Below, piece by piece: positions 12,838 to 46,787 of a DNA stretch of 64,000 bases. The notes beneath the pieces were generated by a model. That model made no database searches, was not told the origin of the DNA, and worked only from the letters and a program-made list of their open reading frames with translations. The stretch's first letter is position 1; every line of letters begins with the position of its first letter. The translations under genes were made by a program, and so were the position numbers. The stretch spans positions 3,670 to 67,669 of the forward strand of contig JAZUGG010000121.1 in NCBI GenBank assembly GCA_045641105.1. The letters run 5' to 3'. This DNA is from Ruminococcus sp. (lineage in GTDB: Bacteria > Bacillota > Clostridia > Oscillospirales > Ruminococcaceae).

Positions 12838-13089
12838 ATGATAAAGACGATTGTAAGATCAGAAGGCATGATGTGCCATATGTGCGAATCACACGTAAAT
12901 AACGCTGTTAAGAAGAATTTCAAAGTTAAAAGTGTTGAGTCATCACATGAAAGCGGAGAGACAGAAATAATCTCGGTGGATGTGCCTGATGAAGCAAAGC
13001 TTCGTGAGGTAATTGAAGCAGAAGGGTACAAGGTTCTTTCAGTAAGCAATGAAAATGTTGAGAAAAAAGGCTTTTTCAGAAAAAAATAA
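12838..13089 (+). CDS. Stand-alone heavy-metal-associated (CopZ-like) protein
   Basis: EGMMCHMC (GMxCxxC) HMA motif; RBS GAGGAG. Confidence 0.8.
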   Translation: MIKTIVRSEGMMCHMCESHVNNAVKKNFKVKSVESSHESGETEIISVDVPDEAKLREVIEAEGYKVLSVSNENVEKKGFFRKK

Positions 13090-13127
13090 GACATCCCCGA
13101 AATATTTTCAGAGATGTCTTTGAGTCG

Positions 13128-13152
13128 GCACCGCACAAAATTTGTGGGGTGC
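13128..13152. repeat. GCACCGCACAAA/TTTGTG.GGTGC hairpin family, copy A
   Basis: Arms shared with copies at 33732, 40054 and 50664; lies between convergent genes. Confidence 0.6.
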
Positions 13153-13180
13153 TGTTTTTATATATTCTTCAAATTTCTGA

Positions 13181-14443
13181 TTAATTCTGCTCTATTGTTA
13201 CTGCTTTGAGTATACGTGCCTCTGCCTCGGAAAAATCGCTTACTGTTGAGGAATACAGTGTCAGGATGTGTTCACCTTTCTGGACATTGTCACCGTTTTC
13301 ACGTTCAAGAATGATACCTGCGGACATATCGATATCGGCAGATTTAACTGCTCTGCCTGCGCCAAGAATGAGAGATGTCATTCCGATTTCTTCGCTGTCC
13401 ATTCTGGTTATTCTGCCGCTGTTCGGGACATATACTTTATGTGAATAAAGCGGCTGAGGGAGAAGTGAGATATCTTCGGTGATACGCTTGTCGCCGCCCT
13501 GCAGTTCAATGGTACGTGCAAAAGTTTCTAGGGCTTTTCCGCTTGATACAGCATTTTCAGCAAGCTGACGGCATTTTTCGGTACTGCCTTTTCCTGCAAG
13601 TCTGAGCATTTCAGCGGAAAGTTCAATGCACAGTTCGTATAATCTGCCTTTTGATCTGCCCTGAAGTATTTCTACAGCCTCGGCAACTTCAAGGGCATTT
13701 CCGATATTTTTTCCGAGCGGTATATTCATATCAGTGACCATTGCACTGCATTTTTTGCCTGCCATGATACCTATTTTGGTCATGATATCGGCAAGTTTCT
13801 GTGCATCCTCCATAGTTTTCATGAATGCGCCCGAACCGTATTTAACATCAAGAAGGATACAGTCAGCATTCATGGCAAGTTTTTTGCTCATAATGCTTGC
13901 ACAGATAAGGGGGATGCTGTCAACTGTACCTGTTGCATTTCTCAGCGCATACAGTTTTTTATCGGCAGGGCAGAGACTTCCGCTCTGTGAAACTATGGAG
14001 AAACCTGTCTGATTGACAATGCTGATGAATTCATCAAACGGAATTTCAGTACGATAGCCGTTAATGCTTTCGAGTTTGTCGATAGTGCCGCCTGTATGTC
14101 CGAGACCTCTGCCTGACATTTTCGGAACATAAACACCGCATGAAGCGGCAATCGGGCCGATAATGAGACTTGTTTTGTCACCGACACCGCCCGTGCTGTG
14201 CTTGTCAACGGTAACGCCGTTTATTGAACTGAGATCAAGAATATCTCCTGATTTCTTCATTACATCGGTCAAAGCAAATGTTTCATTATCGGTAAGCGAA
14301 TTGAGACATACTGCCATAAGCCATGCTGAAACCTGATAATCAGGGATATTTCCGTTTGTATATTCGTTAATGAACCATGTTATTTCTTCGTCTGAAAGCG
14401 GAGTTTTTCTTTTTGTTTTATTTATTATATCACAGCTGTTCAT
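13181..14443 (-). CDS. pdp: Pyrimidine-nucleoside phosphorylase
   Basis: PDYQVSAWLMA, DKHSTGGVGDK, KMSGRGLGHTGGTIDKLES, PADKKLYALR, SIMSKKLA, DVKYGSGAFMK. Perfect TTGACA-17-TATAAT at 14474-14502. Confidence 0.93.
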   Translation of the reverse strand: MNSCDIINKTKRKTPLSDEEITWFINEYTNGNIPDYQVSAWLMAVCLNSLTDNETFALTDVMKKSGDILDLSSINGVTVDKHSTGGVGDKTSLIIGPIAASCGVYVPKMSGRGLGHTGGTIDKLESINGYRTEIPFDEFISIVNQTGFSIVSQSGSLCPADKKLYALRNATGTVDSIPLICASIMSKKLAMNADCILLDVKYGSGAFMKTMEDAQKLADIMTKIGIMAGKKCSAMVTDMNIPLGKNIGNALEVAEAVEILQGRSKGRLYELCIELSAEMLRLAGKGSTEKCRQLAENAVSSGKALETFARTIELQGGDKRITEDISLLPQPLYSHKVYVPNSGRITRMDSEEIGMTSLILGAGRAVKSADIDMSAGIILERENGDNVQKGEHILTLYSSTVSDFSEAEARILKAVTIEQN

Positions 14444-14556
14444 AATAACACCTCCAGTGAATTATATGTATATATTATATCATAATGCTGAAACTTTGTC
14501 AATAAATATGTGGTAAAACAACAATGGCTGCCGTTGCCGACAGCCATAAATTAAAT

Positions 14557-15483
14557 TTATTCAGATAATCCCTCAGATATTCCAAGGAGAATGATGCCGA
14601 TAATAACAACGGAAACTGAAACAGCCTGAGAGCGTGTAAGCTTTTCTTTCAGGAAAATTCTTGACAAAACCAGAGAAACTATACAGTAAGCTGATACCAT
14701 AGGAGCGGCAACTGCGCCGTTTCCGCTGAGAGCATAGACATATGTGAACTGACCTGCAGTCTCAAAAACAGCGGCAGTACCACGGTTTACCTGTGCTTTG
14801 GGCTTTAAAGTCTGACCTTTGATTTTGAGGAAAATGAAAATGCATACAGCACAGAAAAGAAATGTAAGTTCATATGATGTATTGGCAACATTTTCAAATG
14901 TTTCAGCGGTTACATTTTTAAGCGGTGTTTTTGACACGTCATCAAGGTAATATGCATCAAAAAACGTTCCAAGTGCATCAACAGCACAGTAGATAAGAGG
15001 TATTATGAATGCTTTAAGACCTGAGCGGTATTTTTTGTTATCGTCAGAAATCTGCGGTTTATCGAGCTTTTTCTCAATAATTCCGAGAGCAAGTATACCT
15101 GCACATATCAGAACAGTACCGCTTGCAGAAAGAAGATCCATGCTCTGACCAAGAATGATAAGGCAGAGAATTGCCGTGACTGCACCCGAAGAATTCTGAA
15201 CAGGCGAGGAGATCGATAATTCAAGGTAACGCAGACCAAAATAGCCTACCACCATAGAAAGAATATACATCAGCGAAACGGGAAGATAAATAAGAATATT
15301 TATCGGATCATAGTTCATATCGGTGAAAATCAGCATACAGACCGCATGGATACCCATGACAAATCCTACCATCATAGCCGTTTTCAGATGACTGTATTTA
15401 TCCTTTTCGTCAGCGCCCTTCTTATAAAAAAGATCGGCAGTTCCCCATGCAAGAACGGTCAGCAGAGCAAAAATAAACCACAT
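14557..15483 (-). CDS. DMT/EamA-family transporter
   Basis: About ten TM helices in two repeats, ending FLKEKL; RBS GGAGGT; TTGACA-17-TATAAT at 15516-15544. Confidence 0.8.
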   Translation of the reverse strand: MWFIFALLTVLAWGTADLFYKKGADEKDKYSHLKTAMMVGFVMGIHAVCMLIFTDMNYDPINILIYLPVSLMYILSMVVGYFGLRYLELSISSPVQNSSGAVTAILCLIILGQSMDLLSASGTVLICAGILALGIIEKKLDKPQISDDNKKYRSGLKAFIIPLIYCAVDALGTFFDAYYLDDVSKTPLKNVTAETFENVANTSYELTFLFCAVCIFIFLKIKGQTLKPKAQVNRGTAAVFETAGQFTYVYALSGNGAVAAPMVSAYCIVSLVLSRIFLKEKLTRSQAVSVSVVIIGIILLGISEGLSE

Positions 15484-15678
15484 AAATAATACCTCCGTAA
15501 TAAATTCTCTCAAAAATTATATAATACCGAAAAATGTTTGTCAAGGAAAAATACAAAGTTTGTTGAGGCATCATAAAAATTCTTATGTTTTTTTATGATG
15601 CGTTTACGCTTTATTTATTAATTGCACAAAAAAAGCAAGAAATTTATATAAAAAAGGTAAAAAACCGCAATAAAATAC

Positions 15679-15707
15679 TTGAATTAATTTTATATATGTG
15701 ATATAAT
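15679..15707 (+). promoter_or_regulatory. sigmaA promoter for the GH11-GH10-dockerin gene
   Basis: TTGAAT-17 bp-TATAAT. Confidence 0.7.
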
Positions 15708-15802
15708 CAAAACAGATATAAAATTCGGCATGAATATGATGCTGCAAATAACTGTGAAAGAACAAAAAACGGAGATAAAATATTATATAGGGAGGAATTT
15801 CT

Positions 15803-17821
15803 ATGAAATTCAGATTTTTAGGAGGGTTAACAGCGGCGGCAATGACAGCATCACTGATTCCGGCAGCGGCTATCGTAGCATATGCCGAAACGGAAACGTT
15901 CAGTGAATCAAAAGACGGCTATGATTACTTCTGGGAGAACACAGACGATACCGGCACTATCAATATGGATATCGGAAGCAATGGTTCTTTTGAAGCCACA
16001 TGGAGTTCTGTTGAGGACTGTGAGTTCAGATGCGGCAAAGAGCTTGGCAGCACACATCCGTTCTGGGACTACGGCGGAATCCAATTTAATTATAATGTTG
16101 ATTATAAAACAAGCGGCAATTCTTCTATGGGATACTGCTGCACGTTCAGCAATCCAAAATCAGATCTGTACGACATTGAGGTCTATATTATCGAAGCATG
16201 GGGAGACTGGAGACCGCCGGGAATGAATACTCCGCTTAATAAGGTAGTTATAGACGGAAAAAGCTATGACATATACGAGAAAGTTGAATATGAAGATATC
16301 GGGGATGAAAGATTGCCTGTAACAAAATATTACAGCGTTCGGCAAAGCAATCCTGCGCAGGTAAATGTAAGGAAAAATCTCATAGGCACCGTTACTGTCA
16401 GCGAACATCTGAAAGAAATGAAGGATCTTGGTCTTAACGTTAATGGCAACCTTAAATTTGTCGGTTTCTTTGTAAACGGATACCGTTCAAACGGAACAAT
16501 AAGTGTCAAGAAAAATCAATTACCTTTTGGACTATGTCCAATACCTGATTATACAGATGAAGATACAGAAACGCCTGACAACGGTTCAGAAGATACAACT
16601 GTGATCGAACAGGAAACTATTGATACCGAAGAAAACAACACTGAAAAGGCAGGTCCGTTCAGACAGGCGGTCGGAACAGATATCAAGGTAGGTCATACTG
16701 TCTCGGTAATGGACATCAGACAATCACGGGATAATACTATACCAAGCTATAAGGAATATTTTGATTATTTCACACCTGCATATGAGTTGTATCCAGACAG
16801 TATAATTGATAAGGATGCTTCAACTGAAAAAGGAAACAATGTTGATACTCAGATAACACTTCATAACGCAGACGAAATGCTGAAATACTGCGAGGAGAAT
16901 AATATCCCGATATTCGGCGGACCATTTGTGTTTTCCAGCCAGACTCCGGATTGGTTCTTCAGAGAAGATTTTAATGCAGCCGGAGCATATGTAAGCAAGG
17001 AGGTCATGAGACAGCGCCTTGAAAGCCTCATCAAAAATACGTTTGAAGCAATAAAGAAAGACTATCCTGATCTGAAAATATGCGGATATGAGGTATGCAT
17101 GGATATGTTTGAAAGCGAAACAGGAGAATTCAGACATAACAGTGGAAACTGCTGGTATAAAACATATCAGGATGATGATTATATCATTGATGCATACAAA
17201 TTTGCAAGACAGTATGCTCCCGAGGGAACTAAGCTGTTTTACAGCGATTTCAACGAATACATCCCTGAAAAGACAATGGGCATATTCAAGCTTGCAACAG
17301 AGCTTCGGGATATGGAACTCCTTGACGGCATAGGCATGGAGGCTTATCTTAGCGACGATTATCCAGATAAGGAAGAATTCAGAACTGCACTTGAAACGTT
17401 CTCGGAAACAGGTCTCGATATCCAGCTTACGCATTTCCAGGTACACGGTAAGGAAAGACAGAAAAAATATGCAGATATAATTTCTCTTTGCAGGGAGTAC
17501 AGCGATCGTATCAGCGGAATCAATTTTGATTATATCAGCGGTCATTCATGGGACGACGGACTGACTAAGCCTGATATGGAATTGATCAACAGCTATCTTG
17601 AAGAAGCAAACAACGACAAGGCAAACGCTGAAAAGGCTGACGGTGATGCAAATGGTGACGGCTCGTTCAATATTGCAGACGTTGTCCTTGTTCAGCAGTC
17701 TCTCCTGAATGCCAATAAATATAAGATATCTGAAATAGAAAAGGTAGATTATGACAATGACGGCGAACTTACTGTTTTTGACCTTTGTATCATGAAAAGT
17801 GAACTTCTGAATAAAGCATAA
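15803..17821 (+). CDS. Secreted GH11-like + GH10-like + dockerin protein with degenerate catalytic residues
   Basis: Signal peptide; GH11 landmarks (EVYIIEAWGDWRPPG, DGKSYDIY, YYSVRQ, GTVTVSEH, VNGY); GH10 landmarks (SSQTPDWFF, AYKFARQYAP, KLFYSDFNE, DGIGM); dockerin GDANGDGSFNIADV...DNDGELTVFDL. Confidence 0.85.
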   Translation: MKFRFLGGLTAAAMTASLIPAAAIVAYAETETFSESKDGYDYFWENTDDTGTINMDIGSNGSFEATWSSVEDCEFRCGKELGSTHPFWDYGGIQFNYNVDYKTSGNSSMGYCCTFSNPKSDLYDIEVYIIEAWGDWRPPGMNTPLNKVVIDGKSYDIYEKVEYEDIGDERLPVTKYYSVRQSNPAQVNVRKNLIGTVTVSEHLKEMKDLGLNVNGNLKFVGFFVNGYRSNGTISVKKNQLPFGLCPIPDYTDEDTETPDNGSEDTTVIEQETIDTEENNTEKAGPFRQAVGTDIKVGHTVSVMDIRQSRDNTIPSYKEYFDYFTPAYELYPDSIIDKDASTEKGNNVDTQITLHNADEMLKYCEENNIPIFGGPFVFSSQTPDWFFREDFNAAGAYVSKEVMRQRLESLIKNTFEAIKKDYPDLKICGYEVCMDMFESETGEFRHNSGNCWYKTYQDDDYIIDAYKFARQYAPEGTKLFYSDFNEYIPEKTMGIFKLATELRDMELLDGIGMEAYLSDDYPDKEEFRTALETFSETGLDIQLTHFQVHGKERQKKYADIISLCREYSDRISGINFDYISGHSWDDGLTKPDMELINSYLEEANNDKANAEKADGDANGDGSFNIADVVLVQQSLLNANKYKISEIEKVDYDNDGELTVFDLCIMKSELLNKA

Positions 17822-17826
17822 ATAAT

Positions 17827-17870
17827 AAAAGTCCTGAATACGCTTGATTGGCAGTATTCAGGACTTTTTC
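17827..17870. terminator. Bidirectional terminator between convergent dockerin genes
   Basis: AAAAGTCCTGAATAC-loop-GTATTCAGGACTTTTTT. Confidence 0.85.
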
Positions 17871-17884
17871 TATTCTTTTCAGTG

Positions 17885-19804
17885 TTACTTTATATCGTCA
17901 AAAGAATCAATGTCCGAAACAGATGACAATGCATAGTATCTGAGAATATCAGAAGCATCACGGGCATCAACTGTTCCGTCCTTGTTGACATTGGCAGCCT
18001 TTATCTGTGCAGGAGCGAATGAAGCGCCGACTGCTGTTGAAGAATTGGCATATTCGGCAAGTACGGCAGAAGCATCTCTTGCATCAATAGTTGAGTCATT
18101 GTTTACATCACCAAGTATAAACTCATCTGATTCTGCATCAGGCGTTCTGAACTGAATATCGTTTTCCTTTGCATAGGTTTCTGCATAACTTCCTGTATTT
18201 CCGATAATAACAGCATTTGGACAGTTTGCAAAAGCATTATCGCCGATAGATGTGATAGTGTCAGGCAGTGTGATTTTTTTCAGTGAAGAAAAATCTGCAA
18301 AACAATCATCTGGAATATTTGTTCCGTCAGTAATGACGATTTCTTCAAGTGACTTCGGGATATATCCGATTGATTCATAAAATCTGTCGTCATTATTTAA
18401 TGTATCAGACATGAAAAGGTTTTGCTGAAAATTCAACATATCTGTAATATTTGAAATAGGAAATGTTATTTTTTTAAGGTTAGCACATCCGAAGCAAATT
18501 CCTTCTGTTCTGTCGGATTTGCCGAAAGCAGACGGGAATGATATTTCTGTAAGACCGTCACAATTCCTGAATGCTCTTGAACCTATGTATGTCACGCTTT
18601 CAGGAATTACAAGACTGCCGAAATTCATTGATTTACAGCCTGAAAAAGCACTGTCTCCGATATAAGTGATCTTGTCTGATATCTTGAAATCCTTTATATC
18701 AAGTGATTCACACGCACCGAACATATCGTTGGAAAATTTAGTTAGACTATCAGGAATATTAATAGTTTTAAGAGATGTACATTTCATAAATGCTCTGTCA
18801 CCTATTTCTGTGACACTATCGGGAATGTTGATCTCTTCAAGTGATTCGCAGAATGAAAATGCACCAGTACCGATAGATTTGATACTTTCAGGCAGAGTTA
18901 TTGATTTGAGAGAAGCAGCGCCTTGACAAATGCCGTCAGGGATTGCATCACAATCGGTAATAATAAGAGTGGTGAAAGATTTTGGAATAAACACACCTTG
19001 CTGATTTCTGATATAATTTTCGTCAGTACTTCTGTCATAAACGACTTCGTCAGTATCAGGATATGACAATATTACTCCATATGAAACGCCAAAAAATAAA
19101 TCTATGATATCTGTATTGGTATCACAAGGAGAAATGCCTATATATGGAAGAGTTACTTTTTCAATGGCGATATCTTCATAGAAAAGCTCTGTGCCAAGTT
19201 TTTCAATGCCATTGGGAATAACGATTTCTTTAAGTGAAGAACACCACCCGAATGCCATATCACCAATTTCTTTGAGAGACTGCGGCAGATCAATTTTTTC
19301 AAGTGAAGAACAGTTTTCAAAAGCTTTTTTTTCGATTTTAGTAAGTGTATCCGGAAGAATGATCTCCTTAAGATTTTTGCAGTCTGAAAAAGCTGATTCT
19401 CCTATACTTTCTATACCGCCTGAAAAAGTTACTTTTTCAAGTGAAGTACAGGATGAAAAAGCTGAGTAACCGACTTCCTTCAGAGTTTTAGGCAGAGTGA
19501 CAGCAGTAATCTTATCACAGAACCAGAAAGCGCTTTCTCTGATCTCAGTAACAGGTCTGCCCTTGATAGTTTCAGGGATAACAAGCTCACCCTTGACTGA
19601 ATCCTGACAGTCAAGAATGACAACATGATCCGATTTAACGTCATAGTCAATGCCGTCAAACAAGACTTCACCCTCAAATTCAAGTTCATCTTCTGCGGCA
19701 TAAGCGGTAACAGAAGAATTTGTGAACGAGCTGCCGTTTGTCATGAAAGCAGTACCGACAATAGCAAGTGCCGTGATCATTGTGAGAGTTTTTTTGATTT
19801 TCAT
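17885..19804 (-). CDS. BspA-type leucine-rich-repeat (LRR_5) protein with C-terminal dockerin
   Basis: Signal peptide; repeated LxxIxLPxxLxxIGxxAFxxC; dockerin GDVNNDSTIDARDAS...ANVNKDGTVDARDAS. Confidence 0.88.
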   Translation of the reverse strand: MKIKKTLTMITALAIVGTAFMTNGSSFTNSSVTAYAAEDELEFEGEVLFDGIDYDVKSDHVVILDCQDSVKGELVIPETIKGRPVTEIRESAFWFCDKITAVTLPKTLKEVGYSAFSSCTSLEKVTFSGGIESIGESAFSDCKNLKEIILPDTLTKIEKKAFENCSSLEKIDLPQSLKEIGDMAFGWCSSLKEIVIPNGIEKLGTELFYEDIAIEKVTLPYIGISPCDTNTDIIDLFFGVSYGVILSYPDTDEVVYDRSTDENYIRNQQGVFIPKSFTTLIITDCDAIPDGICQGAASLKSITLPESIKSIGTGAFSFCESLEEINIPDSVTEIGDRAFMKCTSLKTINIPDSLTKFSNDMFGACESLDIKDFKISDKITYIGDSAFSGCKSMNFGSLVIPESVTYIGSRAFRNCDGLTEISFPSAFGKSDRTEGICFGCANLKKITFPISNITDMLNFQQNLFMSDTLNNDDRFYESIGYIPKSLEEIVITDGTNIPDDCFADFSSLKKITLPDTITSIGDNAFANCPNAVIIGNTGSYAETYAKENDIQFRTPDAESDEFILGDVNNDSTIDARDASAVLAEYANSSTAVGASFAPAQIKAANVNKDGTVDARDASDILRYYALSSVSDIDSFDDIK

Positions 19805-19957
19805 AAAAGTATCCATCCTTATATAATATTAGTTTCGGAAAAAATAAGTTCCCCAACGTTTTCCAAAACTTTGCTATTATTTTATCATTTTATATTTAAT
19901 TTGTCAATCTGTATTAGTAAAGTATATGCTGCTATAGCTGTATGTTATTATCATATT

Positions 19958-19996
19958 GCAAAAAGCTGATGTACGAATTCTGCACATCAGCTTTGC
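19958..19996 (-). terminator. Terminator after the GH43 gene
   Basis: AAAGCTGATGT / ACATCAGCTTT inverted repeat with a T run on the minus strand. Confidence 0.7.
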
Positions 19997-19998
19997 AT

Positions 19999-22218
19999 TC
20001 AGTTCATAAGACTGCGCATTACTATGAGGTCATATAAATCGATTTCGCCGTCATTGCACAGATCAGCGGCATATGTATCAGTTATGCTGCCGTTTCCGAG
20101 GAGATATGACTGCATCATAACAAGGTCAGCTATTGAAAATTCACCGTCATCATTTATATCACCAACTATTTTCTGCGGTTCAGGGATAACTTCTTCCATT
20201 ATCCAGTCCTGACAGTTGAAGCCGTTGACCTCCCATTCCTGAATATTTGCGCCGCTGTCGGTCTTGCCGTCAACGACCTCCACACAGCTTGTGCCGTTTG
20301 TGATTTTGGTACGTATCTTTACTGAGCCGTCAGGATTTTCAGTAAGCTGATACTTCTGGTTGTCGCCGCCTGTGAGCGTATAGAGGGCAATATTCGTGCC
20401 GTTTGCAGTTTTCTTTGATGTTACATCGAGGAGAGTATCATTATCAGTATAAATGCTGCAATAGCCGTCGCCAACATCACGGAAAGTCCATACAGTTCCG
20501 TTTTCTGTCTGTTCGACGTTTGCGCCTGATTCGTTAGTAACCGCTGTCATATATAATCCGCTGTTGACATTTTTCAGTCTGAATCTGCTTCCGTCAACTA
20601 TATTTTTTATGCTCAGAGGTGAACGTGGAGAGCCGCTGTAAGCAGTAGTCTTATTGCCCCATATGGTCTGATTATTATTTCCCACAGCTGTGAATGACAT
20701 GATCTTTGTGCCTTTTTCATTCTGGGCGGCGAGAAATTTTCCGTGATATTCCTGATTGCCGATATTTAGTATTGCATCGGCAGAATCGGGAAGTTCACGC
20801 CATGTTCCGCTGACTGCGCCCGAGATATTTCCGTCAGCAGACAGGGTAATGGTACTGCTGCTGTGAATGGTTTTGTCAGTATCATTTCCGTGGTTGATAA
20901 ATTCATATGTACCTGCGATATCAGCGGCTTCATAGCCTGTTTCATCGATTTCGTCGCCGCAGTATTCATTAGGCGAGACAACGCACCAGCCGTCATTTGT
21001 AAACTGCATGGAATGAACTCTGACCTCATGATATTCAGTACCGCTGTTGAAGCGTGTGTGGTAAACGAGATACCATTTGCCGTCATCATCACGCAGAACT
21101 GAATTGTGACCGCCTGCCATATAAGCTGTATCAAGAGTGCTGAATTTATAGTTGCCCATGACCTTCAGACCAACGCTGTCAAGATTGGAATTAGCCGAAA
21201 GTACAGCATTGTTTCCTTTGGCATCTTTAAACGGGCCAAGAGGGGACTGCGAACGGAAAACTCGCATATTATAGCCTCCCTGAGCAGTAAGACCGCCGTA
21301 TGTTACCCAAAGGTAGTAATATCCTGTATCAGGATTATATTCAATGAACGGCCCTTCACCTGATTTGCCGTAACCGCCTGATATTTTCGTGCCGAAGTAG
21401 CTGTCAACCATTCTGCCGTCAGTGGTATTTCCGGATTCAGGGTGAATGCATTTTCCTGTTTTTTTATCGATTTCAAGAGAGAAAATTCCGCCTGACCATG
21501 AACCATAGCTCATGTACATTCTGCCGTTAGTATCGAAATAGATATTTGGATCAATGGCATTTGGGAAAAGCTGATTATTGAAGTTGTTATTGCTGAACCA
21601 GCCGTTATTGAATGTGACTTCACCTGACGACATCAGTTCGTCAATATTTGTGGAGGTATACTTTTTGTTTACATTTTTCGTTGAACTTCTGACATACTGA
21701 TCGCTGCCGGTAAATCCCGAATAGATCAAAGTATCAACAAAAGTATAAGGACCTTCGATATTCTGAGAAACAGCGTATCCGATAACTGAACGTATATAAG
21801 TTGATGATGTGCAGAAGTACATCATGTAGGCGCCTGTTGAGCCGTCGGGATTAACGTAGTCGGAATTCCATACAACATCAGGTGCCCAGACAGCAAAACC
21901 GCCCTCACAGTCCTCAAGATTTTCGCCGCTCCAGTCAAAGGCTTTTTTCAGATTTGATGAAAGATTGCCAAATTCTACATTATTTGTCGTAGTATAGCCG
22001 TTTGCAAAGCTTTGCCAGTTCATAAGGTCAGAGGAACGTGCCGCCTCTATGTGTGAGCCGAAAACATAGTATTTGTTTGTCTGAACATCTTTCACAATAG
22101 ACGGATCATGTACTGAAACCCGTGCGTGAGAGACAGCATAAGCGGGTATGACTGAAAGCTTAGAGCCTGAAATCAGGAACAGACCTGTCAAAGCCGCCGC
22201 AATAATTTTTTTGAACAT
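19999..22218 (-). CDS. GH43 glycoside hydrolase (probable endo-arabinanase) + CBM13 ricin module + dockerin
   Basis: VHDPSI, VWAPDV, NAIDP and GEGP carry the GH43 D/D/E triad; QKYQL/QDW ricin repeats; dockerin GDINDDGEFSIADL...ADLCNDGEIDLYDL. Start at MFKKII (RBS GGAG). Confidence 0.9.
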   Translation of the reverse strand: MFKKIIAAALTGLFLISGSKLSVIPAYAVSHARVSVHDPSIVKDVQTNKYYVFGSHIEAARSSDLMNWQSFANGYTTTNNVEFGNLSSNLKKAFDWSGENLEDCEGGFAVWAPDVVWNSDYVNPDGSTGAYMMYFCTSSTYIRSVIGYAVSQNIEGPYTFVDTLIYSGFTGSDQYVRSSTKNVNKKYTSTNIDELMSSGEVTFNNGWFSNNNFNNQLFPNAIDPNIYFDTNGRMYMSYGSWSGGIFSLEIDKKTGKCIHPESGNTTDGRMVDSYFGTKISGGYGKSGEGPFIEYNPDTGYYYLWVTYGGLTAQGGYNMRVFRSQSPLGPFKDAKGNNAVLSANSNLDSVGLKVMGNYKFSTLDTAYMAGGHNSVLRDDDGKWYLVYHTRFNSGTEYHEVRVHSMQFTNDGWCVVSPNEYCGDEIDETGYEAADIAGTYEFINHGNDTDKTIHSSSTITLSADGNISGAVSGTWRELPDSADAILNIGNQEYHGKFLAAQNEKGTKIMSFTAVGNNNQTIWGNKTTAYSGSPRSPLSIKNIVDGSRFRLKNVNSGLYMTAVTNESGANVEQTENGTVWTFRDVGDGYCSIYTDNDTLLDVTSKKTANGTNIALYTLTGGDNQKYQLTENPDGSVKIRTKITNGTSCVEVVDGKTDSGANIQEWEVNGFNCQDWIMEEVIPEPQKIVGDINDDGEFSIADLVMMQSYLLGNGSITDTYAADLCNDGEIDLYDLIVMRSLMN

Positions 22219-22417
22219 AGTGATCACTCCAAAATAAATAATTTATCCCCTTTATACAATTGTAGCAAAACAAAGTAAAATGGTCAATGATACATTATAC
22301 TATATTTATAACATTTCATGCCATAATCAGTTTATGTATATTTATAGCTTGACAAAATGCGGAAAATATGTAAGAATATAAATGAGGAACAGTTTTAAGA
22401 AAGAGAGACTGATAACT

Positions 22418-22960
22418 ATGCAGATAAAGAATCATGATGACAAAAGCGGTTTCACAATTTTAGATGGCGAAACGGTAATTCCTGTTAATGTTGAGAACTT
22501 TTACAATGCGATTCAGCTTGATGATATATATATTTCCGTAGTTTCAGATGCTGAGGGCTACACAAGAAAATGTTTTGACAAAAGCGGCAGAGAGATATTT
22601 TCAATTATTTCAGGTCAGGACAGAATGATATTTCTTGGAAATGAGATATCGCTTGACTGCAATTTTGTAACAGCTGATCTGTATTGTCCTGAGCAGAAAC
22701 TTGTACTGCTTGCAAATAATACCGATAAATCCGGAAGAAAGCATCATTCCATATATGTTTTTGACAAAGAAAGCATGCTTCTTAAAACGGTGAACGAGCC
22801 TGTCAAAACCGATGACAGACGTGTTGAATGGTGTTCATTATACTACAAAAGCGGCGAAATGCTTATAAAAGGTGTGGAATATCTTTACAGCGGCGGTGAA
22901 TGCTACGAGCGGAACAAACTGCATTTCAGGCTTGATATGGAAAAATATACAGTTGAATAA
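22418..22960 (+). CDS. Hypothetical protein
   Basis: 180 aa ORF with TTGACA upstream and a terminator downstream; no recognised motif. Confidence 0.65.
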   Translation: MQIKNHDDKSGFTILDGETVIPVNVENFYNAIQLDDIYISVVSDAEGYTRKCFDKSGREIFSIISGQDRMIFLGNEISLDCNFVTADLYCPEQKLVLLANNTDKSGRKHHSIYVFDKESMLLKTVNEPVKTDDRRVEWCSLYYKSGEMLIKGVEYLYSGGECYERNKLHFRLDMEKYTVE

Positions 22961-22964
22961 AAAT

Positions 22965-23000
22965 AAGCGGCACTGCGTAATTGACAGTGCCGATTTTTAT
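22965..23000. terminator. Terminator between convergent genes
   Basis: CGGCACTG-loop-CAGTGCCG followed by ATTTTT. Confidence 0.7.
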
Positions 23001-24190
23001 TATCTGAAGCGTTCATTTGCAAGCTCAATATACTGACTGCGTGTGATTCCGCCGAATTTACATGAAAAATCATCACATGGGCATGAAGCGTCAAGTCCGA
23101 AATATTCTGTGATTCGTTTTTTCAGTTCATCTGCCTTTGAGGAGGTGACAGTAATTTCGCCTTTTTTCAGGTCGTTATCATTGTATTGTATAAAAAGGTG
23201 CATCCCGTAACTGCTCATGTCGGTTTCAGCATCAAAAATCTGCTCAAATTCGTCGCCAAGTTCATGATATGTCAGTCCCCATGAAATGCTTTTGAAGTAT
23301 GAAGATGCCGAAAATCCAAGGTCTATGTCACTTTTCTCAAGAGCTTTATGAGCGGCTATGGGATATGTTCCCCATAAAATTTCATTATCCTGTGCAAATT
23401 CGCAGTCAAGCATAGGAATACCGCACAATTCTTGAGCAGTCATGTCAGGGTTATCAGTTACGATTGCAAACTGCCTGTATACTATCGGCTGTGCCATGAC
23501 CTTTTGCAAAGGATGATTTTTGTCCAGTTCCTCCCATTTGAGGATATCCCTCACCTTGCCTAAGATAAGGCAGTAGGTGTACAGCGTGGGAGTGATTTGT
23601 ATGCGGAAAATGTCGCCTGCCCTGAATTTTACGTGGGGGCGGTCAATGGTTCTGAAACGCTGGATAACATCGTCATAGTTTTCTGGGCATGAGCTGATAT
23701 AATCCTCCGTCAGCCTGATAAAATCGTCCTTGCTGTTCATATTGTCTGACAGAACGGGAAGTATCTGGTCATTTTTAGGATTGAATACAGAAATGCCGCT
23801 GTTTTTTTGGCATAGTGCCACTTCTAAAGTAGCACGGCTGTATGTGGGATTCTGCAAAGAAGTCGGGGTGAGAGATTTGTTTTTGCCACGTTCCGTTTTA
23901 GGAATAAGCAGTTTCCTGTCAACAGTTTCAGCTTCTACATCAGTTTCACGGTAAACCTGACCGCCATTCAGAGAATTTTTCTCCTCAAAAATCATCTTTT
24001 TCACTGAATTGCCGTCAAAAAACATAATAGTCCGCTTATAGAAACAATGAGTGACGGAATAGAAAGTCATGCTTTCCCATTTTGAGTCAATGGGCGCAAG
24101 ACCGTAGTAATAGCGGTATCTGTCATTCAGATCGACAGCGAATTCGCCGTCAGTGAAATATTCTTCAGCTCTGGATTTTTTCTCAGCCAT
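23000..24190 (-). CDS. Imm26-like immunity-family protein
   Basis: N-terminal LNDRYRYYYGL.PI...W and central FRAGDIFRIQI...YCLILG match my recollection of Imm26/HocA-annotated proteins. Confidence 0.65.
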   Translation of the reverse strand: MAEKKSRAEEYFTDGEFAVDLNDRYRYYYGLAPIDSKWESMTFYSVTHCFYKRTIMFFDGNSVKKMIFEEKNSLNGGQVYRETDVEAETVDRKLLIPKTERGKNKSLTPTSLQNPTYSRATLEVALCQKNSGISVFNPKNDQILPVLSDNMNSKDDFIRLTEDYISSCPENYDDVIQRFRTIDRPHVKFRAGDIFRIQITPTLYTYCLILGKVRDILKWEELDKNHPLQKVMAQPIVYRQFAIVTDNPDMTAQELCGIPMLDCEFAQDNEILWGTYPIAAHKALEKSDIDLGFSASSYFKSISWGLTYHELGDEFEQIFDAETDMSSYGMHLFIQYNDNDLKKGEITVTSSKADELKKRITEYFGLDASCPCDDFSCKFGGITRSQYIELANERFR

Positions 24191-43955: not shown

Positions 43956-46748
43956 TCAGGCAATTTTCTTGCAGGCCTCTGCATAATCATAAAGGGCAAC
44001 GCAAAGATTTTTAAGAGATGCATCAGCACTGTCTGACGAAAGAGTATTGTAGATGTAGTCATAAATGCTGTAATCATATCCTTCTATTATCTTATCATAT
44101 TCAGTAGGAATGAATTCTTGTTCAATGTAATAGTATGTTGTACCGCCTTCTGTGCTTGGAAGCTTTATCTTTCTTCCCGGAGCATTCTCAGTGAAATAGT
44201 GACGGAGAACAGTGTTTGTTTTGAGAAGCAGTGATGTGCCATAGTAATCCTCATCGGTTATGCCTTTTGAAGGAGTAATGCTGTTTTTAACCCTTGTAAG
44301 ATCATCAGATGTATACTCAAGCGGATAATCAGCGGACTGATTGAAATAGCAGTTTGCAAATCTTCCATAGTTTATGAAAGCTTCGGCAAATTCTGCATAC
44401 TCAGGCTGAGTGTTTCTGAGCGCTGTGATGTAGTCGCTGACTGTGAAACTGAGTGAATCGACCTTGGATTTGTCGCCGAGAACGATCTGGGCTGTGATAG
44501 GATTGAACATATCCTTTGTTGCAACATGACAACTGAAAATATAGCATTCCTTGCCGTTCTGAGTCGTTTTTTCTGCGGCAGAAACCGGCGCATTGACTAC
44601 AGTATTGTCAGGCATAATGAAGTTTATGGAAGCTTGTTCATCGGCAAGTATTGCATCATCAAGTGTCATATATACATTTACGCCGATAGAACCGTCGATG
44701 TTGATCGAATAGCCTTCAAAACGGGTATTTGTATAAGGATTCTTTTCGCCGCAGTATGAGCAGACATCGTAATGATAATCATGGAACTGAGGATATTCAT
44801 GGAATTTTCCGTTGTTTTCTCCGATTTGGATATTATCCCACTGCTCTTTAGTGCCGCAGTAAATGATCTTGTTGAGATTCTTTGTGCTGTAGAAAATGTT
44901 CTTCTCAATTGTTTTCAGACTTGTCGGGATATAGAGTTCTTTCAGACTGCTGCATCCGGTGAATGCACCTGATTCGATAGTTTCGATATTCTTTGAAAGT
45001 GTAAATTCGCTGAGGTTAGGGCACTGTGCGAATGTTGAATCTTTAAGGACAGTCACGCCGTCAGGCATTCCGAAGCCCTTGAGCGATTCGCAGCCGTTGA
45101 ATGCAGATGCACCGAGATATGTAAGCTGTGAGTCACTTGAAAGAAGCGCATATTTTAAATTATAGCAGTCAATAAATGCGTTGTCGTCGATTTTGGTTAC
45201 AGAGTCAGGAATAGCAACTTCCTCCATACCACAGGCGAAGAATGCCTGAAAACCAATGGTTTTAAGTCCATCCGGCAGGGTAAGTTTTTCAAGTGCATTA
45301 GCACCTGCAAAGCAGTCCTTCGGGATTTCTGTTACTCCTTCCGGGATATTCAGTTCCTTTAAAGGATAGCAGCAGTAGAATGAAGCTTCACCAAGAGAGG
45401 TGAGAGTGCTTGGCAGTTCGATAGTATCCAGACTTTCGGCGCCATAGAAAGCAAAATCAGCGATTGACGTAAGTCCTTCCGGGAAATTGATGTTTTTCAG
45501 CTTTGGATCATGTGCAAATGAATTGAGATTGATTTTTGTAATTGTTGACGGAAGAACAACGGTTTCAAGATTTTCAAAGTACTCAAAGGCACGCACGCCG
45601 GCAGATTTAATGCCTTCTCCAATTACGATTTTCTTAACCATTTTACGGTAATTAGACCATCCGGAAGTGAATGAAGCTGTTCTTTCCTGGTCACGCATTT
45701 CGCAATTTCCGCTGAGTGTGAGAACGCCGTCGGAGGTGATTTTCCAGTTGATATAATCGCTCGAATATTTTCCGTGATCTCTGCCCTCGTAAACCACATA
45801 AGTAAAAGGCGCATTTTGTATAGCGGCATCGCCTACGAAAGCGTTATCTGCGAAACTGATGCCGTCAGGAATATCAAGGCTGGTGAGCTTAGGACAATCT
45901 GAAAAAGCACCCTCACCAACTGTTGCGGCGGGATTTGAAATTTTCAAGCTTTCAACAGAACTGCATCCCTGAAAAGCGCAGTCGCCTATTTTGGTAACAC
46001 TTTCAGGAATATCGATGTTTTTCAGACCTATACATGCTTCAAAAGCGTTGTATGAGATTTCTTTCAATCCGGCAGGTAAGTCGATTGAAGTAAGAGATAT
46101 ACAGCCTGAAAAAGCATAATATTCAATTTCTTCAACTGAGGCAGGTATATTTACATCTGTAAGATTTGAGCATCCCGAAAACATAACTGCACCTATTGAT
46201 TTAATAGAATCAGGAAGAACGACCTTTTGAAGTTTCAGGCTGTCTGCCACGATTGCTCCGTCCATTTCAGTTACGGAATTCGGGAAAACTATTTCCGTAC
46301 AGCCTGTGTTTGAGAAAGCTCTGCTCCAGATCTCCTTAACTGAAGATGGAATGCTGACCGAAGTCAGCTTCGGGGTGTTCATAAAAGCACAGTTTTGTAT
46401 AATGGTGACTGTGTCTGGAATTGATACGCTTTCAAGATTCGGGCAGTCTGAAAAAGAGTATGGGCTGATAGATGTAATGCCTTTTTCAATAATTACTTTT
46501 TTGATCTCAGAACGCCTTAGATCCCATTTAACAGATTTTGCGTTGATCTCATATGGCATTTCGCCGGTACCGCTGATTCTCATTGTACCGTCAGCATCTA
46601 TGTCCCATGCAAAATCGGCAGCGGTATCAGCGTTTGCTGTCAGTACAACTGAATTGTCAAGAAAAGAAGTGAACGGAATAGAATAATTCATAGCAAGAAT
46701 GGATACTACAGCCATAATTCCGGCTATGGTTTTTTTGTGACTTATCAT
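43956..46748 (-). CDS. Large secreted BspA-type LRR protein with uncharacterised C-terminal domain
   Basis: Signal peptide; two LRR_5 blocks each led by W.I..DG..T/R.SG; HDY...C..CG motif; C-terminal FEGYSINIDGSIGVNVY domain; no dockerin or LPxTG seen. Confidence 0.88.
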   Translation of the reverse strand: MISHKKTIAGIMAVVSILAMNYSIPFTSFLDNSVVLTANADTAADFAWDIDADGTMRISGTGEMPYEINAKSVKWDLRRSEIKKVIIEKGITSISPYSFSDCPNLESVSIPDTVTIIQNCAFMNTPKLTSVSIPSSVKEIWSRAFSNTGCTEIVFPNSVTEMDGAIVADSLKLQKVVLPDSIKSIGAVMFSGCSNLTDVNIPASVEEIEYYAFSGCISLTSIDLPAGLKEISYNAFEACIGLKNIDIPESVTKIGDCAFQGCSSVESLKISNPAATVGEGAFSDCPKLTSLDIPDGISFADNAFVGDAAIQNAPFTYVVYEGRDHGKYSSDYINWKITSDGVLTLSGNCEMRDQERTASFTSGWSNYRKMVKKIVIGEGIKSAGVRAFEYFENLETVVLPSTITKINLNSFAHDPKLKNINFPEGLTSIADFAFYGAESLDTIELPSTLTSLGEASFYCCYPLKELNIPEGVTEIPKDCFAGANALEKLTLPDGLKTIGFQAFFACGMEEVAIPDSVTKIDDNAFIDCYNLKYALLSSDSQLTYLGASAFNGCESLKGFGMPDGVTVLKDSTFAQCPNLSEFTLSKNIETIESGAFTGCSSLKELYIPTSLKTIEKNIFYSTKNLNKIIYCGTKEQWDNIQIGENNGKFHEYPQFHDYHYDVCSYCGEKNPYTNTRFEGYSINIDGSIGVNVYMTLDDAILADEQASINFIMPDNTVVNAPVSAAEKTTQNGKECYIFSCHVATKDMFNPITAQIVLGDKSKVDSLSFTVSDYITALRNTQPEYAEFAEAFINYGRFANCYFNQSADYPLEYTSDDLTRVKNSITPSKGITDEDYYGTSLLLKTNTVLRHYFTENAPGRKIKLPSTEGGTTYYYIEQEFIPTEYDKIIEGYDYSIYDYIYNTLSSDSADASLKNLCVALYDYAEACKKIA

Positions 46749-46787
46749 AATGATTACCTCCCTCAATGTAAATCATCCTTATTTCTA

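What the first reader, a model, noticed from the sequence alone, without database searches (positions are those of the whole stretch)
15803..17821. Double pseudo-enzyme: GH11 and GH10 modules both lack catalytic residues, yet the gene is intact and dockerin-tagged
Seen, aligned by eye to family consensus. GH11 keeps the nucleophile (E126, EVYIIE) but the acid/base VEGY reads VNGY (N225), the YGW motif reads YCC and the PSI thumb is lost. In GH10, WDVxNE reads YEVCMD (D434), the nucleophile ITE reads LTH (H544), GHTLVWH reads GGPFVFS and ENEMK reads AYELY. The ORF still has no stops or frameshifts, and has a consensus promoter, strong RBS, signal peptide, two-loop dockerin and terminator. Established: GH11+GH10 bifunctional xylanases occur in R. 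flavefaciens; the plant inhibitor XIP targets GH10 and GH11 and TAXI targets GH11; catalytically dead paralogue decoys are known in Phytophthora (PsXLP1). Inference: this is a non-catalytic cellulosomal subunit acting as a xylan-binding anchor, an inhibitor decoy, or an enzyme with new chemistry.
Basis: partly seen in the sequence, partly recalled or inferred. Interest (0 to 1): 0.8.

Follow-up and report, generated by a model that had tools for sequence, protein, structure and literature searches.

The report
Cellulosome protein made of two dead xylanases
A horse-gut Ruminococcus gene encodes a secreted, dockerin-tagged protein built from a GH11 and a GH10 xylanase module that have both lost their catalytic machinery, yet the gene is transcribed in vivo and kept by selection, so it most likely serves a non-catalytic (probably glycan-binding) role in the cellulosome.

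Summary
ORF 15803-17821 (+) encodes a 672-aa protein: signal peptide, GH11, linker, GH10, dockerin. Profile, pairwise and structure-prediction comparisons confirm these replacements:
- GH11 keeps the nucleophile (E126) but has N225 for the acid/base Glu, and has lost Y69, W71 and the Pro-Ser-Ile thumb tip.
- GH10 has D434 for the acid/base Glu and H544 for the nucleophile Glu, and has lost nearly every -1/-2 subsite residue.

It is not a decaying gene:
- Both folds are predicted with confidence.
- Three gut metatranscriptomes yield RNA contigs over the gene but almost none over its neighbours.
- 42 SNPs from 11 public runs give pN/pS of 0.21, with no frameshift or stop.

Constraint sits on GH10 and the dockerin (10 N : 21 S). 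The GH11 module looks relaxed (9 N : 1 S).

The gene belongs to a well-supported clade found in horse-faeces and related Ruminococcus/Oscillospiraceae MAGs. That clade first remodelled the GH10 active site and then lost both Glu residues in the query subclade.

The closest precedents are the inactive-GH10 xylan-binding protein BACOVA_03431 and the RsgI6 GH10 sensor. A binding role is inferred, the ligand is unknown, and a decoy role is unlikely. I rate it a new variant of a known kind.

The parts
15679..15707 (+). Promoter-like site: TTGAAT, 17-nt spacer, TATAAT, with TG before the -10 hexamer
   Evidence: 10 of 12 matches, TG present. Weak alone: 10 such sites were found in the region against 7.6 expected in shuffles.
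15790..15795 (+). Ribosome-binding site GGGAGG, 7 nt upstream of the ATG
   Evidence: read directly from the sequence.
15803..17821 (+). Whole coding sequence, 672 aa plus stop: signal peptide, GH11-like, linker, GH10-like, dockerin
   Evidence: Contigs from 11 public runs show no stop or frameshift.
15803..15886 (+). Signal peptide (aa 1-28, MKFRFLGGLTAAAMTASLIPAAAIVAYA, cleavage after AYA)
   Evidence: Judged by eye. Conserved in clade members P0002 and P0003. Low-pLDDT N-terminal helix. No signal-peptide predictor was available.
15896..16528 (+). GH11-like beta-jelly-roll module (aa 32-242). Nucleophile E126 (16178-16180) kept. Acid/base is N225 (16475-16477). Y69 to C, W71 to T, thumb tip PSI to DIG, Q127 to K.
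   Evidence: AF2 pLDDT is about 87-97. Foldseek TM 0.87-0.91 to GH11 structures. SNPs 9 N: 1 S.
16529..16657 (+). Acidic Thr/Glu/Asp-rich linker (aa 243-285), predicted disordered
   Evidence: pLDDT below 50 for residues 243-280.
16658..17602 (+). GH10-like (beta/alpha)8 module (aa 286-600). Acid/base position is D434 (17102-17104). Nucleophile position is H544 (17432-17434). ENxxK to AYxxY, GH to GG, W to F, N to M, QxH to ExY, D to Q. The beta8 Trp region is replaced.
   Evidence: AF2 pLDDT is mostly above 90. Foldseek TM 0.73-0.76 to GH10 structures. SNPs 7 N: 14 S.
17636..17812 (+). Type I dockerin with two Ca-binding loops (DANGDGSFNIAD 615-626, DYDNDGELTVFD 649-660)
   Evidence: SNPs 3 N: 7 S.
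17827..17868 (.). Hairpin terminator between the convergent genes, followed by a U-run on the + strand to about 17880
   Evidence: free energy -25.8 kcal/mol, z = -8.7, 0 of 200 shuffles fold as well.

Best explanation
The gene encodes a secreted, cohesin-docking protein descended from a canonical GH11-GH10-dockerin xylanase of the R. flavefaciens XynA / P0008 type. Both glycosidase modules keep their folds but have lost the canonical retaining mechanism, so it is a double pseudo-enzyme.

**Shown here.** The residue losses, fold retention (predicted), in-vivo transcription, purifying selection on the GH10 and dockerin parts, relaxed constraint on GH11, and membership of a conserved clade.

**Inferred history.**
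- The clade's ancestor first remodelled the GH10 active-site network while keeping both Glu residues. The changes were R371F, H to S/G, D430E, N to K, Q513E and L545F.
- The branch leading to the query, P0002 and P0003 then lost both Glu residues and the -2 subsite.

**Inferred function.** The protein is mounted on the cellulosome through its dockerin. It acts without catalysis, most likely as a glycan-binding or targeting module whose main working part is the GH10-derived barrel. This would parallel the inactive-GH10 xylan-binding protein BACOVA_03431 of Bacteroides ovatus and the RsgI6 GH10 sensor of C. thermocellum. The ligand is probably no longer plain xylan, because the xylose-holding residues are replaced, several of them by new aromatic residues (Y327, Y330, F377, Y515, F545).
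For: - **Domains and replaced residues:**
- **Outlier status:** about 110 of 119 related GH10 modules have the canonical site. So do 202 of 238 GH10 modules and 78 of 138 GH11 modules in the exhaustive search.
- **Clade:** the GH10 modules of P0001-4, P0012, P0014 and P0050 are monophyletic in 100 of 100 NJ bootstraps. P0001+P0002+P0003 are also monophyletic in 100 of 100. P0003 shares the exact 'LTHFQV' motif. The loss therefore predates about 50% sequence divergence, and the ORFs have stayed open since.
- **Selection on the query itself:** 42 SNP sites from 11 runs, 23 S: 19 N, pN/pS 0.21, P = 7e-7. For GH10 plus the remaining non-GH11 sites (10 N: 21 S), P = 1e-8. No frameshifts.
- **Selection on the sister lineage:** L001 versus L004 gives dN/dS of 0.14-0.19.
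- **Expression:** RNA contigs cover 16065-17831 at depth 3-7 in three metatranscriptomes while the flanks are near 0. Acetate kinase of the same genome reaches 10-20 in the same runs.
- **Folds intact:** mean pLDDT 86.5. TM 0.87-0.91 to GH11 structures and 0.73-0.76 to GH10 structures.
- **Active site remodelled rather than randomised:** 6 clade-wide new conserved residues sit at positions that are at least 85% conserved in 201 canonical GH10 modules.
- **Tandem arrays:** relatives carry 3-4 degenerate GH11 modules plus a dockerin, an arrangement typical of binding modules.
- **Precedents:** PMC4491172 and PMC4711584.
Against: - No binding was measured and no ligand is known.
- Former cleft positions vary between the query and P0002/P0003. 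Only 3 of 12 are identical, against about 50% identity for the module overall. That argues against one shared ligand in the old cleft.
- Within the population the GH11 module shows 9 N : 1 S, which is compatible with neutrality. That module may contribute nothing, or may be decaying.
- Contig depth is a poor expression measure, and the RNA libraries could contain some DNA.
- The SNP counts are small, and many of the SNPs are linked on one haplotype.
- Residue roles (Cex and BCX numbering) come from memory of the literature and were not tested here.
- Cohesin partners were not identified.
Confidence: 0.5

Rival explanations
1. Structural or regulatory cellulosome subunit without glycan binding. 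The folded GH10 barrel plus dockerin occupies cohesin sites, spaces neighbouring enzymes or mediates protein-protein contacts. The old clefts have no ligand.
For: - The former cleft residues are poorly conserved among subclade members, while the barrel core and the dockerin are constrained.
- The neighbouring genes also encode non-enzymatic dockerin proteins, such as LRR_5+dockerin.
Against: - Six new residues at the old active site are conserved across the clade, which suggests the site still matters.
- No precedent was found in the literature searches.
- Not testable with these tools.
Confidence: 0.2
2. Neofunctionalised enzyme. One or both modules catalyse a different reaction with other residues. 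Candidates are E126 of GH11 acting on a substrate with a good leaving group (as in GH1 myrosinase, which naturally lacks the acid/base Glu; from memory), or D434, E513 and H544 in GH10.
For: - The GH11 nucleophile E126 and Y80 are kept.
- GH10 has D at the acid/base position and a clade-wide new Glu (E513) next to the old nucleophile.
- Sister group P0004, P0012 and P0014 keeps both GH10 Glu residues with N to K and Q to E changes, which looks like a specificity shift.
Against: - No acidic pair is conserved in the P0001/2/3 subclade. The acid/base position reads D/N/N and the nucleophile position H/R/H.
- GH11 has also lost Y69 and W71, and is under relaxed constraint.
- 11 of 12 canonical GH10 positions are replaced.
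Confidence: 0.12
3. Decoy for plant xylanase inhibitors of the TAXI or XIP type. It would soak up inhibitors to protect the active cellulosomal xylanases, as PsXLP1 does for PsXEG1 in Phytophthora.
For: - The protein consists of catalytically dead paralogues of inhibitor targets.
- It lives in a plant-fed gut.
- The excess of non-synonymous changes in GH11 (9 N: 1 S) could reflect an arms race.
Against: - The GH11 cleft and thumb tip, which the inhibitors contact (from memory of the TAXI and XIP complexes), are replaced in the query. They are deleted or different in other clade members.
- 9 N: 1 S is not significantly above the neutral 4:1 expectation (P = 0.38).
- From memory, XIP inhibits fungal rather than bacterial GH10 and GH11 enzymes.
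- No binding data exist.
Confidence: 0.06
4. A gene on its way to becoming a pseudogene, intact only by chance or recency.
For: - The catalytic residues are lost in both modules.
- The GH11 module shows a neutral-like 9 N: 1 S.
- The nearest relative in 5.8 billion protein clusters is only 42% identical.
Against: - pN/pS is 0.21 overall, and the non-GH11 sites (GH10, dockerin, linker) depart from neutrality at P = 1e-8.
- No stops or frameshifts appear in 11 runs.
- The gene is transcribed in three metatranscriptomes.
- The same losses are shared with P0002 and P0003 across about 50% divergence, with open ORFs and dN/dS of 0.14-0.19.
- The folds are predicted with confidence.
Confidence: 0.05

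Closest known systems
BACOVA_03431 of Bacteroides ovatus PUL-XylL: a natural 'inactive GH10' surface xylan-binding protein (Rogowski et al. 2015, PMC4491172)
   Same: A naturally occurring GH10 fold that has lost the catalytic nucleophile and has a disrupted -2 subsite. It is extracellular, part of a xylan-degrading apparatus, and retained as a non-catalytic component.
   Different: - It is a Bacteroidetes lipoprotein in a PUL, not a dockerin protein of a Gram-positive cellulosome.
- It has a single module with no GH11 partner.
- Its origin is very probably independent, since the query's GH10 nests among Ruminococcus XynA-like modules.
- The query has also lost the acid/base Glu and most -1 subsite residues.
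- Xylan binding is demonstrated for BACOVA_03431 and untested here.
Bifunctional GH11-GH10 xylanases of Ruminococcus: XynA/XylA of R. flavefaciens (P0031) and the GH11-GH10-dockerin protein P0008
   Same: Same module order, collinear over the full length (38% identity to P0008). Same signal peptide, linker and dockerin layout. This is the evident ancestor type.
   Different: These proteins carry the complete catalytic and subsite residue sets in both modules. The query does not.
RsgI6 anti-sigma factor of C. thermocellum, with a C-terminal GH10 module used as a polysaccharide sensor (PMC4711584)
   Same: A GH10 module in a cellulosome-producing Firmicute that has been repurposed from catalysis to polysaccharide binding.
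   Different: RsgI6 is membrane-anchored and signals to sigma-I6. Its GH10 module keeps low activity and high similarity to Xyn10D. The query is secreted, carries a dockerin and has lost both Glu residues.
GH18 chitinase-like lectins (chi-lectins), e.g. PMC3662789 (listed), and the GH18-fold inhibitor XIP-I (from memory)
   Same: A glycosidase fold retained after loss of the catalytic acid and reused for binding.
   Different: A different fold family. Eukaryotic. Single module.
PsXLP1, the catalytically dead GH12 paralogue decoy of Phytophthora sojae
   Same: A dead paralogue of a secreted plant-cell-wall hydrolase, kept by selection.
   Different: PsXLP1 keeps the inhibitor-binding surface and sits next to its active paralogue. 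Here the inhibitor-contact regions are replaced, and no active paralogue lies in the window.

Membership tests
Glycoside hydrolase family 10 (sequence/fold family) | Significant match to the GH10 profile and a (beta/alpha)8 fold | tested here: met
   Pfam PF00331, E 5.6e-35. phmmer to PDB entry 2w5f, E 2e-39. Foldseek TM 0.73-0.76.
Glycoside hydrolase family 10 (active enzyme) | Acid/base Glu at the end of beta4 (the N-E motif) | tested here: not met
   The position reads M433-D434.
Glycoside hydrolase family 10 (active enzyme) | Nucleophile Glu at the end of beta7 (the T-E-L-D motif) | tested here: not met
   The motif reads T543-H544-F545-Q546.
Glycoside hydrolase family 10 (active enzyme) | Conserved -2/-1 subsite residues (E/N/K, H, W, Q, H, W) | tested here: not met
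   11 of 12 canonical positions are replaced. Of 82 positions that are at least 85% conserved in canonical modules, 45 are variable in the clade.
Glycoside hydrolase family 11 (sequence/fold family) | Significant match to the GH11 profile and a beta-jelly-roll fold | tested here: met
   Pfam PF00457, E 3.8e-22. Foldseek TM 0.87-0.91, rmsd about 2.3 A.
Glycoside hydrolase family 11 (active enzyme) | Nucleophile Glu (BCX E78) | tested here: met
   E126 in IEVYIIE.
Glycoside hydrolase family 11 (active enzyme) | Acid/base Glu (BCX E172) | tested here: not met
   N225 in VNGY.
Glycoside hydrolase family 11 (active enzyme) | Y69, W71 and the Pro-Ser-Ile thumb tip | tested here: not met
   Y to C, W to T, PSI to DIG. 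The thumb hairpin itself is still predicted.
Type I dockerin (cellulosomal component) | Two Ca-binding repeat segments matching the dockerin profile | tested here: met
   PF00404, E 2.2e-8. DANGDG at 615 and DYDNDG at 649. SNPs 3 N: 7 S.
Type I dockerin (cellulosomal component) | Binding to a cohesin of the same organism | not testable with these tools
   No scaffoldin lies in the window. Two adjacent genes also carry dockerins.
Inactive-GH10 glycan-binding proteins (BACOVA_03431 type) | Loss of the nucleophile and a disrupted -2 subsite | tested here: met
   H544 at the nucleophile position. ENxxK reads AYxxY. The definition comes from PMC4491172.
Inactive-GH10 glycan-binding proteins (BACOVA_03431 type) | Demonstrated xylan binding without hydrolysis | not testable with these tools
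   Requires recombinant protein.
Decaying pseudogene | Stops or frameshifts, dN/dS near 1, no transcription | tested here: not met
   - Open ORF in 11 runs.
- pN/pS 0.21.
- RNA contigs in 3 metatranscriptomes.
- For the GH11 module alone the result is inconclusive (9 N : 1 S).
Inhibitor decoy (PsXLP1 type) | Retention of the inhibitor-contact surface and tight inhibitor binding | tested here: inconclusive
   The thumb tip and cleft residues are replaced, and are not conserved in the clade. Binding is not testable here.

The most novel reading that the evidence does not exclude
The clade represents GH10- and GH11-derived non-catalytic module families that equine-hindgut Ruminococcaceae have recruited into their cellulosomes. 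This would include the relatives with 3-4 tandem degenerate GH11 modules plus a dockerin. Their remodelled clefts would recognise a ligand other than plain xylan, in effect new CBM families born from xylanases. Rapid change in the GH11 part would then reflect ligand diversification or an arms race.
Probability: 0.3. Interest if true: 0.75.

Novelty: new variant of a known kind. Interest (0 to 1): 0.6.

Why it matters
CAZyme counts from genomes and metagenomes are routinely read as enzymatic capacity. This protein would be scored as two xylanases although it very probably has no xylanase activity. It is not an isolated case in this lineage: 36 of 238 GH10 modules and 60 of 138 GH11 modules among the query's top relatives are non-canonical.

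In 2015 a single natural inactive GH10 had been described, in Bacteroides. My literature searches found no natural inactive GH11 and no dockerin-borne pseudo-glycosidase.

If the modules bind glycans, they would be a new source of carbohydrate-binding modules. They would also show stepwise enzyme-to-binder evolution inside a cellulosome, with an intermediate (the N-to-K / Q-to-E group) still available for study.

Tried and rejected
1. **Looking up the query or P0003 by exact sequence.** Neither is on record, so the rest of the query genome could not be read.
2. **Synteny.** The P0002 locus (MurJ, cobW | gene | lactamase_B) shares no neighbours with the window, so context gives no functional clue.
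3. **Paralogues in the window.** tblastn finds no other GH10 or GH11 there, only one further dockerin match.
4. **dN/dS between the query and its nearest relatives.** Synonymous sites are saturated (dS 1.6 to undefined). I used population SNPs from public runs instead.
5. **Terminator scan.** It found nothing. Folding showed a strong hairpin.
6. **Literature searches.** Searches for pseudo-GH in cellulosomes and for inactive GH11 returned no description of this family. The 'inactive GH11' hits appear unrelated, judged from their titles only.
7. **Alternative Glu pairs.** E430 and E513 are conserved across the clade, but the acid/base and nucleophile positions are not conserved acids in P0002 and P0003. 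I rejected them as a conserved catalytic pair.
8. **GH11 monophyly.** Support for the degenerate modules is only weak (54 of 100). The query's GH11 is closer to canonical P0008 (47%) than to other degenerate modules (27-42%). GH11 degeneration may therefore be partly parallel.
Full report
**1. What is there**

The window carries an open reading frame at 15803..17821 on the + strand, encoding 672 aa.

Pfam finds three domains:
- GH11, residues 42-235, E 3.8e-22.
- GH10, residues 294-588, E 5.6e-35.
- A type I dockerin, residues 614-669, E 2.2e-8.

NCBIfam gives only a sub-threshold match to a xylanase/feruloyl-esterase equivalog, 58.6 bits against a cut-off of 1200.

The gene is flanked by these signals:
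- A promoter-like TTGAAT-17-TATAAT with an upstream TG at 15679-15707. It is not significant on its own.
- An RBS, GGGAGG, 7 nt before the ATG.
- A hairpin followed by a U-run at about 17827-17880, with a free energy of -25.8 kcal/mol and z = -8.7. It is shared with the convergent downstream gene.

The N-terminus, MKFRF...AIVAYA|ET, reads as a signal peptide by eye.

Neighbouring genes:
- An EamA-type transporter on the - strand.
- An LRR_5+dockerin protein at 17885-19816 (-).
- A GH43 + GH43_C + ricin-B + dockerin protein at 19999-22227 (-).

The gene therefore sits in a small group of dockerin genes in a Ruminococcus-like chromosome. The window contains no other GH10 or GH11.

**2. The catalytic residues are really replaced**

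Three independent alignments agree.
- phmmer against PDB chains: 'diqlTHfqv' aligns with 'dvqiTEldi' of C. thermocellum Xyn10B, 'YEVCMD' with its 'YDVVNA', 'VNGYRSNG' with 'VEGYQSSG', and 'iEvYIieaWG' with 'vEfYIvdsWG'.
- MAFFT alignments of all GH11 and GH10 modules from 120 homologues.
- A full-length collinear BLASTP alignment with P0008, a canonical GH11-GH10-dockerin protein.

GH11 module:
- The nucleophile E126 and Y80 are kept.
- The acid/base is N225.
- Y69 is C and W71 is T.
- The thumb tip P-S-I reads D-I-G.
- Q127 is K.

GH10 module:
- ENxxK reads AYxxY.
- G-H reads G-G.
- W is F.
- N-E reads M-D (D434).
- QxH reads ExY.
- T-E-L-D reads T-H-F-Q (H544).
- The beta8 Trp segment is replaced.

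Two small points differ. The 'YCC' assignment is one residue out of register. The thumb hairpin itself is still predicted, and only its tip motif is lost.

This is far from typical. About 110 of 119 related GH10 modules carry the full canonical set.

AlphaFold2 with a 55-sequence alignment predicts both modules and the dockerin confidently, with mean pLDDT 86.5, and a disordered linker at 243-280. Foldseek matches GH11 structures at TM 0.87-0.91 and GH10 structures at TM 0.73-0.76. The folds are kept and the chemistry is not.

**3. It is a member of a clade, not an accident**

The nearest relatives in 5.8 billion protein clusters are only about 42% identical. They show related degeneration.
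- P0002 and P0003 (866-867 aa) have two GH11-like modules plus GH10 plus dockerin. They have lost both GH10 Glu residues (acid/base N, nucleophile R or H), and P0003 has the identical 'LTHFQV'. Every GH11-like module of theirs that was scored has lost the acid/base (N or H).
- P0004, P0012 and P0014 (634-647 aa) and P0050 keep the two GH10 Glu residues. They have N to K, H to S/G and Q to E/A, and have lost the beta8 Trp. In the three that carry a GH11 module (P0050 has none), it lacks Y69, Y80 and the thumb.

In NJ trees the seven GH10 modules form a clade in 100 of 100 bootstraps, and P0001+P0002+P0003 form a subclade in 100 of 100. GH11 monophyly is weak, at 54 of 100.

I compared the clade at the 82 positions that are at least 85% conserved in 201 canonical GH10 modules:
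- 31 are kept. These are mostly core residues.
- 45 are variable.
- 6 carry a new residue conserved across the clade: R371F, D430E, S449N, Q513E, S514A and L545F. Most of these lie in the old active-site network.

This suggests a two-step history. The active site was first remodelled under selection, with the Glu residues kept. The catalytic Glu residues and the -2 subsite were then lost in the branch leading to the query.

An exhaustive phmmer search of 1.84 billion representatives adds more members with the same architecture and lost residues: P0131, P0135 and P0139 (Pfam). It also finds proteins with three or four tandem degenerate GH11 modules plus a dockerin: P0145, P0146, P0177 and P0215. 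Among the top 150 representatives, 36 of 238 GH10 modules and 60 of 138 GH11 modules are non-canonical. This sample is biased by the degenerate query.

In species-representative genomes, the degenerate loci occur only in the following:
- A horse-faeces Ruminococcus MAG, which holds two paralogues.
- GCA_045617245.1.
- A series of Ruminococcus/Oscillospiraceae MAGs labelled 'T19000452xx_TH2019', whose origin I could not establish.

All loci from rumen isolates and rumen MAGs, including R. flavefaciens FD-1 and Y1, are canonical.

**4. It is expressed and under selection**

Near-identical DNA is present in 20 public runs, from horse, gut and faeces metagenomes, including three metatranscriptomic RNA runs.

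In all three RNA runs, assembled contigs cover 16065-17831 at word depth 3-7. The flanking genes (13000-15670 and 18010-23000) are almost uncovered. In the same runs, acetate kinase of this genome reaches 10-20 and several other genes reach 0-5. Contig depth is a crude measure. Even so, gene-specific coverage argues for real, moderate transcription rather than DNA carry-over.

Contigs from 11 runs give 42 SNP sites in the CDS and no frameshift or stop. The 15-16-nt insertions near 17810-17823 are duplications that fall after the stop codon.

SNP counts:

| Region | Non-synonymous | Synonymous | Note |
|---|---|---|---|
| Whole CDS | 19 | 23 | pN/pS 0.21; binomial P = 7e-7 against neutrality |
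| GH10 | 7 | 14 | |
| Dockerin | 3 | 7 | |
| GH10 + dockerin | 10 | 21 | P = 1e-8 |
| GH11 | 9 | 1 | differs from the rest, Fisher P = 0.002; not above the neutral 4:1, P = 0.38 |

The sister lineage gives the same overall result. L001 versus L004 are 97.6% identical at the amino-acid level and give dN/dS of 0.14-0.19. There, all modules fall below the neutral ratio.

Taken together, the gene is maintained by selection. The selected parts in the query lineage are the GH10-derived barrel and the dockerin. The GH11-derived module is relaxed or fast-evolving.

**5. How it most likely works**

Shown: this is a secreted protein with a cohesin-binding tag. It carries two folded xylanase-derived modules that cannot use the canonical double-displacement mechanism.

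Inferred: it is mounted on the cellulosome and acts non-catalytically, most plausibly by binding a plant cell-wall glycan.

Support for that inference:
- Two published cases of GH10 modules repurposed for binding. One is BACOVA_03431, a natural inactive GH10 lacking the nucleophile and with a disrupted -2 subsite, which binds xylans at the B. ovatus surface (PMC4491172). The other is the RsgI6 GH10 sensor of C. thermocellum (PMC4711584).
- New residues at the old site that are conserved across the clade.
- CBM-like tandem arrays of degenerate GH11 modules in relatives.

Cautions:
- The residues that hold xylose are themselves replaced.
- The former cleft differs between the query and P0002/P0003.
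- The ligand need not be xylan and may differ among paralogues.
- A purely structural or regulatory role cannot be excluded.

**6. Rival explanations**

- **New chemistry.** This is not excluded. It lacks a conserved acidic pair in the subclade, where the acid/base position reads D/N/N and the nucleophile position H/R/H.
- **Decoy for TAXI or XIP inhibitors.** This is unlikely. The GH11 thumb tip and cleft, which the inhibitors contact (from memory), are replaced, and they are not conserved in the clade.
- **Decaying gene.** This is refuted for the gene as a whole. It stays open for the GH11 module alone.

**7. Comparison with the known, and novelty**

By sequence and fold the modules belong to families GH10 and GH11. 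By the defining catalytic features they fail the test for active enzymes.

Functionally the closest known thing is the inactive-GH10 binding protein of Bacteroides. The authors of that 2015 paper stated that no other natural inactive GH10 had been described. My four literature searches found no description of natural inactive GH11 modules or of dockerin-borne pseudo-glycosidases. The library searched is incomplete.

I therefore rate this a new variant of a known kind. It is a pseudo-glycosidase retained for a non-catalytic role, in a new setting (the cellulosome) and in a new form (two dead modules of different families in one polypeptide). It also has a traceable stepwise origin.

**8. Verdict**

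A non-catalytic cellulosomal subunit is supported. A xylan anchor is unproven. A decoy or new chemistry is unlikely.
- Interest is 0.6.

Noticed in passing
Proteins P0145, P0146, P0177, P0215, P0147, P0156: Relatives carry three or four tandem GH11-like modules, nearly all lacking one or more catalytic or subsite residues, followed by a dockerin or a degenerate GH10. This looks like a radiation of xylanase-derived jelly-rolls used like CBM arrays.
   Followed up: partly
Loci L001-L004, L023, L029, L032, L035 versus all other loci: In the species-representative genomes, degenerate GH10 loci occur only in a horse-faeces Ruminococcus MAG, GCA_045617245.1 and 'T19000452xx_TH2019' Ruminococcus/Oscillospiraceae MAGs. 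All rumen-derived loci (sheep, buffalo, yak, deer, R. flavefaciens FD-1 and Y1) are canonical. This may be a hindgut-specific clade.
   Followed up: partly
window 17750-17800; loose ends in runs X15 and X6: Short contigs that cross-map on the dockerin continue into sequence translating to the P0003 C-terminus (YRIDGWKKAD...ILLKDEYDEY). A P0003-type paralogue therefore co-occurs in the same samples, perhaps in the same genome.
   Followed up: no
window 17810-17823: A 15-16-nt insertion polymorphism, a duplication of ATAAAGCATAAA-like sequence, occurs in several runs just after the stop codon. It does not change the protein.
   Followed up: partly
P0005, P0007, P0121, P0127; L005-L007: Otherwise canonical GH11-GH10 proteins carry a second, C-terminal GH11-like module. 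In that module the acid/base Glu is Asp and the thumb reads C-I-L instead of P-S-I.
   Followed up: no
P0004, P0012, P0014, P0050, P0129, P0134; L002, L003, L023, L035: A sister group keeps both GH10 Glu residues but has Lys in place of the Asn before the acid/base. Most members have Glu in place of the beta6 Gln (P0004/L002 has Ala). It may be an enzyme with altered specificity and an evolutionary intermediate.
   Followed up: partly
window 17885-19816 (-) and 43956-46766 (-): Two BspA-type leucine-rich-repeat (LRR_5) proteins. The first carries a C-terminal dockerin, so it is a non-enzymatic cellulosome passenger lying convergent with the focal gene.
   Followed up: no
window 19999-22227 (-): A GH43 + GH43_C + ricin-B lectin + dockerin protein, a likely arabinofuranosidase or xylosidase of the cellulosome. 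It shows almost no RNA contig coverage in the three metatranscriptomes.
   Followed up: no
window 23000-24190 (-) and 51235-54549 (-): An Imm26 immunity-protein domain gene, and a 1104-aa DUF4132/HEAT protein. Both are unrelated to the finding.
   Followed up: no
window 16183-16228: Contigs from other GH11 genes cross-map on the conserved 'EAWGDWRPPG' segment at the nucleotide level. This produces an apparent 'goes back 41' joint in run X6. It is a mapping artefact, not a rearrangement.
   Followed up: partly
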